Origin: a virus | Lineage: Duplodnaviria; Heunggongvirae; Uroviricota; Caudoviricetes | IMG/VR virus record: IMGVR_UViG_2718218171_000006 | Location: 1-41,141 of that record | Reading direction: 5' to 3' (one strand) | Length of the DNA stretch: 41,141 bases | Shown: positions 33,399 through 36,732 of the stretch, in pieces | Position numbering within the stretch: position 1 is the stretch's first letter | How the letters are laid out: each line of letters starts with the position of its first letter | Program-made: the position numbers and the translations under genes | Notes under the pieces: generated by a model | What the model saw: the letters and a program-made list of their open reading frames with translations, nothing else | Database searches by the model: none | Told to the model about the DNA's origin: nothing

Positions 33399-33488
33399 AC
33401 AATATGTACCTCCGGTGTACATATTACATGATTGAGATGAACCTTCAAGATACTTGTACCTTAACGGTACAAGGGTTTTAATTTCGTT
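33399..33488. promoter_or_regulatory. Immunity operator/promoter region (OR; divergent pR and pRM)
   Basis: Inverted repeats ATGTAC-N7-GTACAT (33404..33422) and CTTGTACC-N5-GGTACAAG (33453..33473); minus-strand TTGAAG-16-TAATAT overlaps the first; plus-strand TTGTAC...TTTAAT ends ~8 nt before the cI ATG. Confidence 0.55.
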
Positions 33489-34163
33489 ATGAAAACAGTC
33501 CATGACATCCGGCGGTCTAACGCCAGAAAACTGAGAGATGGTGTTGGCGGGAATTCTTCCTTTGCCACCATGATTGATCGCGAGCCAACCCAGACCAGCA
33601 GGTTTATGGGAGATGGTGCAACTAAAAATATCGGTGACAGCATGGCACGGCACATCGAAAAATGTTTCGACCTGCCTGTCGGATGGCTTGATCAAGAACA
33701 CCAGACAACGAACATCACAAAAAAACCTGATGTTTCAATCACTAACAAGCAAATAACGTTAGTCCCTGTCATATCATGGGTACAGGCCGGAGCATGGAAA
33801 GAAGTTGGCTATTCTGAGGTTGATTTGAGCACAGCAGAAACTTATCCCTGCCCTGTACCCTGTGGCGAAATGACTTATATCTTGCGGGTGATTGGTGATT
33901 CAATGATTGATGAATACCGCCCGGGAGATATGATTTTTGTTGATCCTGAAGTACCTGCCTGCCACGGTGACGACGTTATTGCATTGATGCACGATACAGG
34001 TGAAACCACCTTTAAAAGGTTGATAGAAGACGGAACACAACGTTATCTCAAAGCATTAAACCCAAACTGGCCAGAGCCTTACATTAAGATCAACGGTAAT
34101 TGTTCCATAATTGGTACTGTGATTTTCTCAGGAAAACCAAGGAGATACCAAATTAAAGCCTAA
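33489..34163 (+). CDS. CI-type prophage repressor with C-terminal S24 (LexA-like) autopeptidase domain
   Basis: 224 aa; N-terminal HTH; C-terminal ILRVIGDSM Ser-Lys dyad motif; divergent from cro. Confidence 0.85.
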   Translation: MKTVHDIRRSNARKLRDGVGGNSSFATMIDREPTQTSRFMGDGATKNIGDSMARHIEKCFDLPVGWLDQEHQTTNITKKPDVSITNKQITLVPVISWVQAGAWKEVGYSEVDLSTAETYPCPVPCGEMTYILRVIGDSMIDEYRPGDMIFVDPEVPACHGDDVIALMHDTGETTFKRLIEDGTQRYLKALNPNWPEPYIKINGNCSIIGTVIFSGKPRRYQIKA

Positions 34164-34175
34164 TCAATATTTATG

Positions 34176-34198
34176 AACCTGCTTCGGCAGGTTTTTTT
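34176..34198 (+). terminator. Intrinsic terminator downstream of cI
   Basis: AACCTGC-TTCG-GCAGGTT hairpin followed by TTTTTTT. Confidence 0.6.
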
Positions 34199-34202
34199 AT
34201 AC

Positions 34203-34235
34203 TTGACAATGTACCCTTGAGATACATAATGTACC
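34203..34235 (+). promoter_or_regulatory. pL-like early-left promoter with overlapping operator (OL)
   Basis: TTGACA(34203..34208)-17 nt-ATAATG(34226..34231); spacer contains ATGTAC-N7-ATACAT, one mismatch from the OR repeat. Confidence 0.5.
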
Positions 34236-34339
34236 TATATGAAACAGCGAACAGGCAGGATGCCCACGAAGTAGCCGCCCGGGGCATATGAAGACCGGGA
34301 TGATTCGTTAGCAACAAAAAAGCGCCGTACCGGACACTT

Positions 34340-34352
34340 CGCTCTTTAACAA
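34340..34352 (+). promoter_or_regulatory. boxA antitermination element in the pL leader
   Basis: CGCTCTTTAACAA: contains the 12-nt rrn boxA consensus GCTCTTTAACAA exactly. Confidence 0.5.
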
Positions 34353-34397
34353 TCTGATCCCCATCAACAAGTAATTGATAACTTGAGGAAGTGTGAA

Positions 34398-34604
34398 ATG
34401 CACAAAACAGAACCAAAAATCGTCGCGCCAGGCTACACAGATGAGGAAATTTACGAGTGGATGACAAAGAAGCTGGCTGCTATAAACCAGCTTCGTGAAG
34501 TGCAGTCTTATCGTCAGGAAACAATAGACTCCTTAAAAAAACTAGATCAGGAGATCACATCTTTATCGCAAGAATCTACTCTAGATATTGTTCATACAAA
34601 TTAG
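34398..34604 (+). CDS. Hypothetical small acidic protein (first ORF downstream of pL)
   Basis: 68 aa from ATG 34398 with GAGGAAG RBS; coiled-coil-like; no family recognised. Confidence 0.4.
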   Translation: MHKTEPKIVAPGYTDEEIYEWMTKKLAAINQLREVQSYRQETIDSLKKLDQEITSLSQESTLDIVHTN

Positions 34605-35010
34605 GATCCCATTCTTTTTCGTCAAAGTTATCAAAGTGATAAATTTGAGATCTCCAGTCTAAATTATCTAAAAAATCCTTAGCTCTTTTACTCATTTTAT
34701 CAAACGTCAATTCATCCTGAATAGAAAGAATAAGATCATCAAACTCCATTTCATTAATTTTTTTTGGTGTCCAATGATGTTTCATAAGAATAAGGTGAAT
34801 CAACGCATTTTTCCCTTTCAATTGATTATAGGGTGTGCTGAATTTCTTTCTATGCTCATATAGTACAAGATCAAGCAAAGTCAGGAATGCGGCTCTTGAT
34901 TCAACCTTAACTTTATCGACTGTTTGAACTATTCCACTAGTATTAATACCACGACACTTTCCAACATTTTCACAGTGGGATGCATACAGGTCACGTATAT
35001 AAACAGACAT
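34576..35010 (-). CDS. Hypothetical protein encoded by an AT-rich moron (candidate exclusion/defence gene)
   Basis: 144 aa from ATG 35010 with AGGA-type RBS; hand-counted 60-nt stretches 27-30% GC; the upstream ORF-track extension is a GC-rich read-through. Confidence 0.5.
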   Translation of the reverse strand: MSVYIRDLYASHCENVGKCRGINTSGIVQTVDKVKVESRAAFLTLLDLVLYEHRKKFSTPYNQLKGKNALIHLILMKHHWTPKKINEMEFDDLILSIQDELTFDKMSKRAKDFLDNLDWRSQIYHFDNFDEKEWDPNLYEQYLE

Positions 35011-35296
35011 TCTCTTTTCCTTTTGCGTTGTTGGGGATACCCAGATTAACCGAATCCTTGTTGTTGGGGAATAACCAGGTCCACCTCGCCTGATGTGGCT
35101 AAAAGCAGGCACATAACAACTAAGTATTTTCAACCAGAGAGAATCCTTAGCATTGTGGTGAATGCGGCTCAGCGCACGCGGGTTAAGGTTGAGGCTGACA
35201 GTCGACCTTCTGTGGATACCCACCCGCCTGGTGTGCAACCTTCGCCAGGCACCGGGAGGCACCCGACACCACAACTTTATGCTGTGTGTAGTCCTG

Positions 35297-35342
35297 GCGG
35301 TACCAGCTTGTACCCTTGCTTCCGGCTGGTACCGCTCTTTTT
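35297..35342 (+). terminator. Strong hairpin with U-tract (intrinsic terminator-like) upstream of the early-left genes
   Basis: Perfect 11-bp stem GCGGTACCAGC/GCTGGTACCGC, 17-nt loop, then TCTTTTT. Confidence 0.45.
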
Positions 35343-35479
35343 ACAAAACAGAGAAGAGCATCACCGGACGACGGGCTCATAACCCAATCCATCCGGGCGG
35401 CTGCCACCACAGGTGTTCTTCTCTGTTTTGTGGAGAAACTAATCGGCCTTGCAGGGCCGATATGATGAGGAGCAGCAAA

Positions 35480-35842
35480 ATGGCTAGCGAACGCAGTACT
35501 GATGTGCAGGCATTTATCGGGGAGCTGGACGGCGGCGTATTTGAAACCAAAATCGGCGCAGTTCTCAGTGAAGTCGCTTCAGGTGTGATGAACACGAAAA
35601 CCAAAGGTAAGGTCTCACTCAACCTGGAAATCGAACCATTTGATGAGAACCGTGTGAAAATCAAACACAAACTCTCATATGTTCGCCCGACTAACCGCGG
35701 GAAAATTTCCGAAGAAGACACCACCGAAACGCCGATGTATGTCAATCGCGGTGGTCGCCTGACTATTCTGCAGGAAGACCAGGGACAATTACTGACTCTT
35801 GCCGGTGAGCCTGACGGAAAACTCCGCGCAGCAGGTCATTAA
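35480..35842 (+). CDS. Hypothetical protein (size and context match YfdP of prophage CPS-53)
   Basis: 120 aa from ATG 35480 with GAGGAG RBS; gene order and sizes 120/274/178 aa parallel yfdP-yfdQ-yfdR; sequence identity not verified. Confidence 0.5.
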   Translation: MASERSTDVQAFIGELDGGVFETKIGAVLSEVASGVMNTKTKGKVSLNLEIEPFDENRVKIKHKLSYVRPTNRGKISEEDTTETPMYVNRGGRLTILQEDQGQLLTLAGEPDGKLRAAGH

Positions 35843-35907
35843 TATCGTTCTTAATTAACTGATTATTTATCTCATCACTGAATATCTTAATATAGTGAGG
35901 ACTTATT

Positions 35908-36732
35908 ATGTCTCAGAACTTAGACGCAACCGCAATTAATCAAATCCATGCCCTTATTTCTGCTCAGGGTGTTAATGAAATTATCAGTAAGATTGGTGCC
36001 GATGCTGTGGCATTGCCTGAGAATTTCCGCATTCATGATCTGGAAAAATTTAATTTAAATCGCTTCCGTTTCCGTGGTGCGCTTTCCACTGCCAGCATCG
36101 ATGACTTTACCCGTTATTCTAAAGATCTTGCAGATGAAGGCACCCGCTGCTTTATCGATGCTGATAATATGCGTGCCGTCAGTGTGCTTAACCTGGGTAC
36201 TATTAATGAACCAGGTCACGCAGATAACACCGCCACTCTCAAACTGAAAAAGACAGCACCGTTCTCTGCACTGTTGTCTGTTAACGGCGAGCGTAACTCC
36301 CAGAAATCACTGGCAGAATGGATTGAAGACTGGGCCGACTACCTTGTGGGCTTTGATGCTAATGGTGACGCCATTCAGGCAACAAAAGCGGCTGCGGCAA
36401 TCCGTAAAATCACGATTGAAGCAAACCAGACCGCTGATTTTGAAGATAATGACTTCAGCGGCAAACGCTCCCTGATGGAGTCTGTCGAAGCGAAGACCAA
36501 AGACATTATGCCAGTGGCATTTGAATTTAAATGCGTTCCGTTTGAAGGCCTGAAAGAACGTCCGTTTAAATTACGCCTCAGCATTATTACTGGCGATCGT
36601 CCTGTACTGGTTCTGCGCATTATTCAGCTGGAGGCGGTGCAGGAAGAAATGGCTAACGAATTTCGTGATCTGCTTGTTGAGAAATACAAAGACAGCAAAG
36701 TAGAAACCTTTATTGGTACTTTCACCGCCTGA
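35908..36732 (+). CDS. YfdQ-like protein (DUF2303 family, tentative)
   Basis: 274 aa; assignment by size and context, not by search. Confidence 0.5.

What the first reader, a model, noticed from the sequence alone, without database searches (positions are those of the whole stretch)
34398..35010. AT-rich convergent two-gene moron beside the immunity region: candidate uncharacterised exclusion/defence module
Directly downstream of cI and the pL-like promoter, where lambda and relatives carry rexAB/sieB-type exclusion genes, lies a 144-aa ORF on the minus strand (34576..35010). Its body is about 27-30% GC in hand-counted 60-nt stretches, against about 50% for flanking phage genes. It converges on, and overlaps by 29 nt, a 68-aa acidic ORF on the plus strand (34398..34604). 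I cannot place either protein in any family from sequence. Atypical composition, hotspot position and transcription opposed to pL suggest a horizontally acquired cargo locus; any function (superinfection exclusion, abortive infection, toxin/antitoxin-like pair controlled by convergent transcription) is inference.
Basis: partly seen in the sequence, partly recalled or inferred. Interest (0 to 1): 0.7.

Follow-up and report, generated by a model that had tools for sequence, protein, structure and literature searches.

The report
Conserved convergent prophage gene pair
Two small overlapping genes next to a prophage's repressor are a real, mobile, conserved pair of unknown function, and one of them sits behind a widespread, undescribed structured leader sequence shared by dozens of other prophage cargo genes.

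Summary
A 144-aa gene (34576-35010, minus) and a 68-aa gene (34398-34604, plus) converge and overlap by 29 nt just downstream of cI and a pL-like promoter. The 144-aa gene is the most AT-rich stretch of the window (32.6% GC against 50.9%).

Both evolve as coding genes (dN/dS about 0.2). The large protein belongs to the uncharacterised ECs1072 family and has no detectable fold relative. The small one is YdfC-like.

They are a module: all 36 testable ECs1072-family loci, across Enterobacterales and in three different prophage slots, carry a convergent, 3'-overlapping partner. A related phage swaps both genes out as one cassette. In Salmonella prophage ST64B, published RNA-seq shows the homologous pair transcribed in lysogens.

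No known defence, toxin-antitoxin or Pfam family matches, so any exclusion or defence function remains inference.

An unexpected extra: the 144-aa gene follows a conserved structured leader of about 75-105 nt (35011-35114, minus). It precedes at least 27 unrelated small cargo families, occurs in 56% of complete E. coli genomes (including e14 ymfI) and is absent from Rfam.

The parts
33489..34163 (+). cI-like repressor (LexA/S24 family, ymfK-like). Context: it defines the immunity region.
   Evidence: Pfam Peptidase_S24 at 1.5e-26 and PHROG 4. RefSeq annotates it as a 'LexA family protein'.
34175..34230 (+). Terminator after cI (34175-34194) followed by the pL-like promoter TTGACA-16-CATAAT (34203-34230).
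   Evidence: Consensus scan, 11 of 12 promoter positions. The equivalent features are annotated as terminator and promoter in phage Ayreon.
34376..35026 (.). Exchangeable cassette that holds both genes.
   Evidence: blastn against PhiR29_1: homology stops at 34375 and resumes at 35027, with 532 nt of unrelated sequence in between.
34398..34604 (+). 68-aa acidic YdfC-like partner gene, co-oriented with pL.
   Evidence: PHROG 1744 at 1.2e-33. It is 39-41% identical to phage genes annotated 'YdfC family'. dN/dS is 0.17 against SfIV. It shares an N-terminal motif, EP..(I/V).x6-9..(I/L)..W(M/L), plus a coiled coil with the partners of distant loci.
34576..35010 (-). 144-aa ECs1072-family gene, antisense to pL.
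   Evidence: NCBIfam NF033230 at 161 bits and PHROG 5286 at 2.2e-67. There are 64 family representatives at 50% identity, all about 145-155 aa. The AF2 model has pLDDT 93.8 and is all-helical. dN/dS is 0.20.
34576..34604 (.). 29-nt 3'-3' coding overlap of the two genes.
   Evidence: Read directly from the sequence. The overlap is 29-95 nt in the short-partner class and 131-308 nt in the long-partner classes.
34469..34494 (-). Terminator-like hairpin on the minus strand, 82 nt past the 144-aa stop and inside the partner ORF. It is a possible 3' end for the antisense transcript.
   Evidence: Scan result: 10-bp stem followed by TTTG. The stem is conserved in SfIV. The U-tract is weak, and the conservation could come from the coding constraint.
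35011..35114 (-). Conserved structured leader immediately upstream of the 144-aa start codon. Elements: S1 GCCTG 35110-35106 pairing with CAGGC 35092-35088; S2 CCAC 35098-35095 pairing with GTGG 35084-35081; hairpin CCTGGTT/AACAAGG at 35079-35056; then a second CCCCAACAAC repeat and the SD.
   Evidence: Covariance model R1 hits 35042-35114(-) at 43 bits, E 1.7e-11. The same leader precedes a different cargo gene in PhiR29_1.
35134..35344 (+). STnc100/PasD-like sRNA candidate with its own 3' hairpin and U-run, in the pL direction. It is a neighbour, not part of the cassette.
   Evidence: Rfam RF02076, full-length match, 36.2 bits (gathering score 47), E 3e-6.
35480..36732 (+). yfdP and yfdQ, the next early-left operon genes (context).
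   Evidence: RefSeq annotation of the identical E. coli C4 locus; PHROG 204.

Best explanation
This is a mobile, lysogen-expressed two-gene prophage cassette.

[quoted passage not shown] In the 15 loci whose flanks were read, the small gene points the same way as the phage's lytic transcription (pL here, the late operon elsewhere) and the large gene is antisense to it. Both genes are under purifying selection. The pair moves as a unit between prophage slots. The ST64B homologues are both transcribed in Salmonella lysogens while the neighbouring lytic genes are silent.

Inferred mechanism: the large protein is the effector of an accessory function exerted in the lysogen, most likely exclusion or abortive infection of incoming phages. 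The small protein is its cognate partner or antagonist. Because the two transcription units collide and their RNAs overlap, they form an excludon-type switch. When the resident prophage is induced, strong lytic transcription through the partner gene should raise the partner and suppress the effector, by transcriptional interference and RNase III cleavage of the duplex. That would give the prophage self-immunity.

In most lineages, including this window, effector expression is probably set by a conserved structured 5' leader: two interleaved helices and a hairpin abutting the Shine-Dalgarno sequence. Many unrelated cargo genes share this leader.
For: Module:
- All 36 testable ECs1072-like loci have a convergent, overlapping ORF. 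31 of them carry the P...W motif, which occurs in 4.4% of background ORFs; the other 5 carry recognisably related variants.
- The hosts span Escherichia, Shigella, Salmonella, Klebsiella, Proteus, Providencia, Morganella, Arsenophonus and Xenorhabdus.
- The pair occupies three slots: after cI/pL, between Q and holin (Klebsiella phage, ST64B), and after the lysis genes (Xenorhabdus).
- In the 11 loci tested by synonymous shuffling, the six long overlaps (167-239 nt) stay open only rarely by chance (P 0.003-0.03 each).
- The pair is swapped as a unit against PhiR29_1.

Coding: dN/dS is 0.17 and 0.20.

Expression:
- STMMW_20121 (435 nt) and STMMW_20131 (360 nt, overlapping it by 71 nt) match the ST64B pair exactly in size and position. 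With one exception (4.9 TPM for STMMW_20121 in one condition) they show 20-270 TPM across 17 conditions, against 0.1-41 for holin and lysozyme.
- The authors report that STMMW_20121 has its own promoter and lies antisense to the lytic genes (PMC7067206 text and supplement).
- In the two conditions where the neighbouring holin and lysozyme genes are highest (the paper attributes ST64B lytic transcription to peroxide and nitric-oxide shock), the partner/effector ratio rises from about 0.7 to 1.3-2.5.
- ECs1072 itself is on the list of genes whose expression changes at a growth transition in O157 Sakai (PMC2241611).

Same architecture in K-12 e14: the leader precedes ymfI, which converges on ymfJ downstream of the cI-like ymfK. 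RNA-seq lists ymfI-ymfJ as a convergent excludon (PMC12288877). ymfJ is induced late in the SOS response (PMC11002266).

Cargo character: lowest GC in the window, and dS of 0.82 against 0.22 for cI.

Leader.
Against: - The partner family also exists without the big gene (Qin-like YdfC), so it may have a job of its own.
- In ST64B the partner is already transcribed in lysogens, so it is not simply an induction-only antidote.
- Homology between the short and long partner classes is weak (hhalign P 0.0017, probability 16%).
- No sigma-70 consensus promoter was found for the 144-aa gene in the window.
- The 29-nt overlap here carries no statistical weight on its own.
- The strand on which the leader folds could not be settled.
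Confidence: 0.4

Rival explanations
1. Prophage-internal regulator rather than defence. The pair is a regulatory excludon that tunes the resident phage's own early-left or late transcription, for example by damping leaky pL read-through in lysogens or timing induction. The 144-aa protein, or merely its antisense transcript, acts on the phage itself.
For: The position is strictly fixed within lytic operons, antisense to them, in the loci examined. The analogous e14 pair is scored as an excludon, and ymfJ is controlled by a CI-like repressor. A terminator-like hairpin would end the antisense RNA inside the partner gene. Owen et al. describe the locus as 'accessory or regulatory'.
Against: An RNA-only role does not explain purifying selection on a 144-aa protein conserved down to 20-30% identity. 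The slot holds many unrelated cargo genes behind the same leader, which fits interchangeable accessory functions better than a core regulator. Related phages lack the pair altogether.
Confidence: 0.25
2. Toxin-antitoxin-like addiction or abortive-infection pair with the roles reversed. The small YdfC-like protein is a growth-inhibiting lytic-cycle effector, and the ECs1072 protein is its lysogen-expressed neutraliser.
For: YdfC-like genes sit in early-left operons next to host-takeover genes such as dicB, dicF and ydfD. The partner is always the gene driven by lytic transcription. Both are expressed in ST64B lysogens, as is typical of TA pairs.
Against: The genes are convergent, not an operon. 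Neither protein matches any TA family. Canonical YdfC exists without a neutraliser. Toxicity was not tested.
Confidence: 0.15
3. Two unrelated genes that are merely adjacent. A backbone early-left gene (YdfC-like) has a solo moron inserted behind it, and the overlap is an accident of insertion.
For: YdfC-like genes are ordinary pL-operon genes and occur alone. The space behind them is a general insertion hotspot. The 29-nt overlap is not significant by itself. The short and long partner classes are only weakly alike.
Against: The pair co-occurs in all 36 testable loci and has moved jointly to late-operon slots that have no other pL genes. It is swapped as one block. The long overlaps are kept open against expectation.
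Confidence: 0.12

Closest known systems
e14 prophage ymfI-ymfJ locus of E. coli K-12 (downstream of ymfK/cohE)
   Same: Same slot, directly after the cI-like repressor and before the STnc100-like region. The same conserved leader precedes the antisense gene. The gene pair is convergent and overlapping (63 nt). The sense gene is induced late in SOS, and the pair is scored as a convergent excludon.
   Different: The proteins are unrelated: YmfI and YmfJ hit neither the ECs1072 profile nor the partner profile. Their function is also unknown.
Excludons (convergent or divergent genes with overlapping transcripts that give mutually exclusive expression through interference and RNase III)
   Same: Convergent units with overlapping 3' ends. 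One is driven by a strong, conditionally active promoter (pL or late), the other is expressed in the repressed state.
   Different: Transcript overlap is not mapped for this locus. In ST64B both genes are detectably expressed together in lysogens.
sieB/esc with sas antisense RNA of P22 and lambda; rexAB of lambda (from my own knowledge of the literature)
   Same: Exclusion genes expressed in the lysogen, located beside the immunity region and pL. In P22 there is a self-immunity product and antisense control.
   Different: There is no sequence or fold similarity. ECs1072 proteins look soluble (GRAVY -0.55), not membrane proteins. An exclusion phenotype has not been tested.
BstA of Salmonella prophage BTP1 (PMC8585504)
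   Same: A prophage defence gene placed downstream of the repressor, constitutively expressed in lysogens, with a built-in self-immunity element. It was flagged by the same transcriptomic study that flagged STMMW_20121.
   Different: BstA is a single large protein with a DNA anti-BstA element inside its own gene. Here there are two small proteins, and no homology.
Qin prophage ydfABC-dicF-dicB operon
   Same: The partner is YdfC-like (39-41% identity to annotated YdfC-family phage genes). In both, the YdfC-like gene is followed by an sRNA region (dicF there, STnc100-like here).
   Different: Qin-type loci have no ECs1072 gene behind ydfC. The function of YdfC is itself unknown.

Membership tests
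NCBIfam NF033230, ECs1072 family phage-associated protein (144-aa gene) | Whole-protein HMM score above the curated cutoff of 70 bits, over the full length. | tested here: met
   161.3 bits, residues 5-143 aligned to profile positions 3-141 of 142. PHROG 5286 also matches at 2.2e-67.
YdfC-like small proteins / PHROG 1744 (68-aa gene) | Sequence homology over the full length. | tested here: met
   PHROG 1744 at 1.2e-33 over residues 1-67. tblastn gives 39-41% identity and E 2e-10 to phage genes annotated 'YdfC family'. K-12 YdfC itself was not compared directly.
Known anti-phage defence systems (PADLOC-DB 2.0) | An HMM match to any component model. | tested here: not met
   No families at E up to 1 for either protein, and none for ten other cargo proteins of the same slot at E up to 0.01.
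Type II toxin-antitoxin systems | Two co-directional, co-transcribed genes. | tested here: not met
   The genes are convergent and overlap at their 3' ends.
Type II toxin-antitoxin systems | A toxin or antitoxin domain of a known family. | tested here: not met
   No hit in Pfam, NCBIfam or PDB sequence profiles. Foldseek hits to HEPN toxins are not significant (E above 1, TM about 0.25).
Type II toxin-antitoxin systems | Toxicity of one protein, neutralised by binding of the other. | not testable with these tools
   This needs expression and interaction experiments.
Moron (autonomous accessory unit inside a phage operon) | Base composition unlike the neighbours, and presence or absence among close relatives. 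| tested here: met
   32.6% GC against 50.9%, the window minimum. The unit is replaced or absent in PhiR29_1, Ayreon, SfV and cdtI phages that share the flanks.
Moron (autonomous accessory unit inside a phage operon) | Its own promoter, and expression in the lysogen. | tested here: inconclusive
   No sigma-70 consensus was found upstream in the window. The ST64B homologue is reported to have its own promoter and constitutive expression (PMC7067206).
Excludon | Convergent genes whose transcripts overlap. | tested here: inconclusive
   The coding overlap of 29 nt is shown, but transcript ends are not mapped. The analogous e14 pair is listed as an excludon from RNA-seq.
Superinfection exclusion proteins of the SieB/RexB type | Membrane protein expressed from the prophage that blocks other phages. 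| tested here: not met
   The protein is hydrophilic (GRAVY -0.55) and modelled as a soluble helical bundle. No dedicated transmembrane predictor was run. The phenotype is untestable here.
Any Rfam 15 family (leader, minus strand 35011-35114) | A covariance-model match. | tested here: not met
   No hit on that strand in the window at E up to 10, and none at the leader positions of five other loci at E up to 1.
Rfam RF02076 STnc100 (35134-35344, plus strand) | Score at or above the gathering threshold of 47 bits. | tested here: inconclusive
   36.2 bits, full-length, E 3e-6. A related PasD family is described in a 2026 preprint.

The most novel reading that the evidence does not exclude
Enterobacterales prophages carry a plug-and-play cargo platform. 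A conserved pseudoknotted leader RNA, in no RNA database, governs expression of dozens of interchangeable small cargo genes placed antisense inside lytic operons. Its commonest cargo, the ECs1072 protein with its convergent YdfC-like partner, is a new two-component phage-exclusion or abortive-infection system. Self-immunity comes from excludon-type convergent transcription plus a protein antagonist.
Probability: 0.25. Interest if true: 0.85.

Novelty: new variant of a known kind. Interest (0 to 1): 0.68.

Why it matters
If the pair is an exclusion or abortive-infection system, it adds a compact defence module (about 650 bp) with a new fold. The cassette region is present in about 8% of complete E. 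coli genomes at 80% coverage or more (408 of 5426), and the ST64B homologue was seen on at least 1000 Salmonella contigs. It would also give a concrete case of self-immunity built from convergent transcription.

Independently of function, the shared leader marks, by a simple sequence signature, at least 27 families of small prophage cargo proteins that have no annotation. It is present in 56% of complete E. coli genomes and in at least 13 other genera of Enterobacterales. That makes two things directly testable: how prophages express accessory genes from inside silent lytic operons, and what the K-12 y-genes ymfI and ymfJ do.

Tried and rejected
- AF2 on the single sequence gave pLDDT 46.6 and was unusable. 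The 50-sequence alignment fixed this.
- A PDB profile search gave only a chance myoglobin hit at E 0.3.
Single-protein scans yielded one locus and none. Contexts were therefore obtained through the look-up of encoding contigs.
- HEPN was considered because of the conserved HR...H residues. It was rejected: there is no Rx4-6H motif in the alignment and no fold match.
- The long 232-aa reading of the minus ORF (TTG at 35274) was rejected. Homologues start at the ATG at 35010, and the extension is the antisense of the sRNA and leader region.
- The leader was considered as a sigma-70 extended -10 promoter (TGnTATCTT). This is unlikely to be its only role, because the hairpin whose 5' arm overlaps that hexamer covaries.
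- Sigma-54 and RfaH ops readings were checked by eye and do not fit.
- The leader strand was tested by G.U against A.C counts and by MFE on both strands. The result is inconclusive and confounded by the C/A-rich composition and a register shift in one stem class.
- RNAalifold on the MAFFT alignment recovered only one helix because of register shifts. The covariance-model alignment was used instead.
- Literature searches for the leader sequence found nothing. A search for ECs1072 found one paper, which only lists it in an expression table.

Full report
**1. What is in the window**

The window is an SfIV/SfV/e14-like lambdoid prophage of E. coli. Region 34150-35500 is 100% identical to strain C4, and the region is present at 80% coverage or more in 408 of 5426 complete genomes.

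- A cI-like S24 repressor (33489-34163, +) is followed by a terminator (34175-34194) and a near-consensus promoter at 34203-34230.
- The first ORF after that promoter is the 68-aa gene (34398-34604, +).
- The 144-aa gene (34576-35010, -) converges on it with a 29-nt overlap.
- GC of the 144-aa gene is 32.6% against 50.9% for the window, the lowest of any 435-nt stretch.

**2. Both ORFs are genes, in named but uncharacterised families**

- The 144-aa protein matches NCBIfam NF033230 'ECs1072 family phage-associated protein' (161 bits, cutoff 70) and PHROG 5286. There is no match in Pfam or PADLOC.
- The 68-aa protein matches PHROG 1744. It is 39-41% identical to phage genes annotated as YdfC family. 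YdfC is a small protein of unknown function in the Qin ydfABC-dicF-dicB operon (PMC5069750).
- Against the SfIV alleles, dN/dS is 0.20 and 0.17. The 144-aa gene is much more diverged (dS 0.82) than cI (0.22), which fits a mosaic, imported allele rather than positive selection.
- An exhaustive HMMER search found 64 family representatives at 50% identity, nearly all 145-155 aa. The conserved residues are R54, L64, G66, A69, H72, W80 and W134.
- With that alignment AlphaFold gives a confident all-helical model (pLDDT 93.8).

**3. The two genes are a module**

Distant family members (20-35% identity) were located in phage records and assemblies from nine genera: Escherichia, Shigella, Salmonella, Klebsiella, Proteus, Providencia, Morganella, Arsenophonus and Xenorhabdus.

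- Every one of the 36 testable loci has an ORF on the opposite strand that overlaps the 3' end of the ECs1072-like gene.
- 31 of these ORFs carry a P-x10-16-(hydrophobic)xxW(M/L/I) motif followed by a coiled coil. The motif occurs in 4.4% of background ORFs. The other five carry recognisable variants.
- Partners fall into a short class (68-87 aa, overlap 29-95 nt) and longer classes (about 100-190 aa, overlap 131-308 nt).
- In the six long-overlap loci tested by shuffling (167-239 nt), synonymous shuffling of the big gene keeps the antisense frame open in only 0.3-3% of trials.
- Homology between the short and long partner classes is only weakly supported (hhalign P 0.0017).
- The pair occupies three different slots: after cI/pL (this window and most loci), between Q/tRNA and holin (Klebsiella phage ST974-OXA48phi18.2, Salmonella ST64B), and after the lysis genes (Xenorhabdus).
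- In all 15 loci whose flanks were read, the small gene is co-oriented with the phage's lytic genes and the big gene is antisense.
- In phage PhiR29_1 the block 34376-35026, holding both genes, is replaced by one unrelated minus-strand gene (coiled coil plus zinc ribbon). In Ayreon a larger block is replaced.
- Conversely, YdfC-like genes occur without the big gene in Qin-like phages. The partner family is therefore broader than the module.

**4. Expression evidence from the literature**

The ST64B pair (L005 3281-3715 and 3645-4004, overlap 71 nt) corresponds exactly in length, overlap and position next to the holin to STMMW_20121 (2090066-2090500) and STMMW_20131 (2090430-2090789) of S. Typhimurium D23580.

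- Owen et al. single out STMMW_20121 as transcribed in almost all of 17 conditions, from its own promoter, antisense to the lytic genes.
- Their table gives 20-270 TPM for both genes (apart from one condition at 4.9 TPM for STMMW_20121), against 0.1-41 for holin and lysozyme. The partner is highest in the two conditions where those lytic genes peak, which the paper attributes to peroxide and nitric-oxide shock (PMC7067206).
- ECs1072 itself appears in the list of genes with significant expression changes at a growth transition in O157 Sakai (PMC2241611).

**5. A conserved leader, found in passing**

Aligning the regions upstream of the big gene revealed a non-coding element conserved far better than the proteins. 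Its consensus is GCCYG-N7-12-CCAC-N-UCRGGCG-N1-3-GUGG-UAU-[CUUGG-N13-15 containing CACACAAC-CCAAG]-SD-N6-10-AUG.

*Distribution*
- The ORF that follows it belongs to at least 27 unrelated families of 57-167 aa. ECs1072-like is the largest (34 of 127). Only DUF1883 and BssS are recognisable, and none is in PADLOC.
- It occurs in 3049 of 5426 complete E. coli genomes and is never annotated there.
- In K-12 e14 it precedes ymfI. ymfI converges on and overlaps ymfJ just downstream of the cI-like ymfK, which is the same architecture with unrelated proteins. A Qin-like BL21 locus is similar.
- RNA-seq lists ymfI-ymfJ as a convergent excludon (PMC12288877). ymfJ is induced late in the SOS response (PMC11002266).
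- One-genome-per-species scanning finds the strict form in 31 records from 13 further Enterobacterales genera plus one unclassified Enterobacterales MAG, plus 2 likely chance hits.
- Several loci carry two or three leader-gene units in tandem.

*Structure*
- A covariance model scores the window copy at 43 bits (35042-35114, minus; E 1.7e-11). It is the only copy in the window.
- On the model alignment 94.3% of cells pair. 8 of 16 pairs show compensatory changes. No shuffle out of 500 reaches the observed values on four of the five measures (15 of 500 on the fifth), and slid controls pair at 26-57%.
- The SD-proximal hairpin covaries at 5 of 6 pairs. Observed stems include CUUGG/CCAAG, ACUGG/CCAGU, UCUGG/CCAGA, AUUGUU/AACAAU and CUCUUGCU/AGCGAGAG.
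- Helix S1 switches cleanly between GCCUG/CAGGC and GCCCG/CGGGC.
- S1 and S2 interleave, which suggests a pseudoknot or two alternative hairpins.

*Caveats*
- The alignment is fitted to the model.
- S2 was fixed by the search pattern, so it carries no independent information.
- The strand could not be settled by wobble counts or energies.
- The fixed spacing to the SD and start codon favours the cargo-sense strand.
- No Rfam family matches, and no paper contains the sequence.

**6. Neighbour**

35134-35344 (+) is a full-length but sub-threshold STnc100 match (36 bits). STnc100 and PasD are prophage sRNAs (bioRxiv 10.64898/2026.05.13.724894). This mirrors the Qin arrangement, where an sRNA (dicF) follows ydfC. 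ORFs called across this stretch are translations of that RNA region: ymfH in K-12, and a 'frameshifted' pseudogene in C4.

**7. Interpretation**

Firmly supported: a mobile, purifying-selected, two-gene convergent cassette in a prophage cargo slot, whose homologues are transcribed in lysogens.

Inferred: the big protein is the effector of a lysogen-expressed accessory function, most plausibly phage exclusion or abortive infection, given the slot and the precedents rexAB, sieB and BstA. The YdfC-like protein is its cognate partner or antagonist. Convergent, overlapping transcription shifts the balance towards the partner when the prophage's own lytic promoters fire.

Rivals:
- a phage-internal regulatory excludon;
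- a pair with reversed roles, in which the small protein is toxic;
- mere adjacency.

None is excluded by experiment. Mere adjacency is disfavoured by the co-occurrence and co-mobility data.

Novelty: the families were already catalogued as hypothetical. The obligate convergent pairing, the absence of any fold relative and the shared structured leader appear to be undescribed.

Noticed in passing
window 35011-35114 (-); also L003, L009-L019, L022-L144: A conserved structured leader lies immediately upstream of the 144-aa start codon. It has interleaved helices GCCYG/CRGGC and CCAC/GUGG, plus a covarying hairpin next to the SD. It is shared by at least 27 unrelated small cargo gene families, is present in 56% of complete E. 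coli genomes and across Enterobacterales, and is absent from Rfam.
   Followed up: yes
window 35134-35344 (+): A full-length but sub-threshold match to the STnc100 sRNA (36.2 bits, gathering score 47) with a 3' hairpin and U-run; the 3' hairpin also gives a weak DicF hit. It lies in the pL direction, in a stretch conserved at 94-97% in many phages that lack the cassette. ORFs called over it (35095-35382 and others, 'ymfH' in K-12) look spurious.
   Followed up: partly
L143 2501-3185 (E. coli K-12 e14) and L144 2001-2611 (BL21 Qin-like): The same architecture occurs with unrelated proteins. In e14 the leader precedes ymfI, which converges on ymfJ with a 63-nt overlap. In BL21 the leader precedes a 66-aa gene that converges on a 121-aa gene inside the dicB operon with a 32-nt overlap.
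   Followed up: partly
L052 3506-4126, L056 9213-9833, L013 3426-4987, and L027, L048, L138, L089, L031, L035, L036: Two or three leader-plus-small-gene units sit in tandem on one strand, like a cassette array.
   Followed up: partly
window 35011-35080 (-); L003, L089 5206-5279, L131, L111, L035 3695-3769: A longer leader subclass repeats the 'UAUCCCCAACAAC' segment, adding about 35 nt between the first hairpin and the SD. The window copy belongs to this subclass and scores lower with the model (43 bits against 80-95).
   Followed up: partly
window 34469-34494 (-): A 10-bp GC-rich hairpin followed by TTTG lies on the minus strand inside the 68-aa ORF, 82 nt past the 144-aa stop. Its stem is conserved in SfIV. 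It may end the antisense transcript.
   Followed up: partly
L008 3700-3915 (-) and L012 3202-3390 (-): Phage-encoded CsrA homologues lie directly next to the ECs1072-like gene in two unrelated prophages. They could be candidate regulators of GGA-containing leaders, or the adjacency could be coincidence.
   Followed up: no
L003 2229-2745 (-) (phage PhiR29_1); cargo cluster 10 (L131): The alternative cargo in the same slot is a protein of about 167 aa with a coiled coil and a C-terminal zinc ribbon. It probably starts at a GTG placed where the window has its ATG. GenBank annotates it as a 242-aa ORF that runs into the leader.
   Followed up: partly
window 33400-33480 and 34203-34240: Repeated TGTAC-containing inverted repeats flank both the divergent cI/cro promoters and the pL-like promoter. 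They are probably the repressor operators.
   Followed up: no
L011 4349-4582, L012 4422-4649, L016-L020 (70-aa genes), L109/L115: Loci with a long-class partner also carry a separate canonical YdfC-like gene of about 70 aa just upstream. The long partner may therefore be a specialised paralogue.
   Followed up: partly
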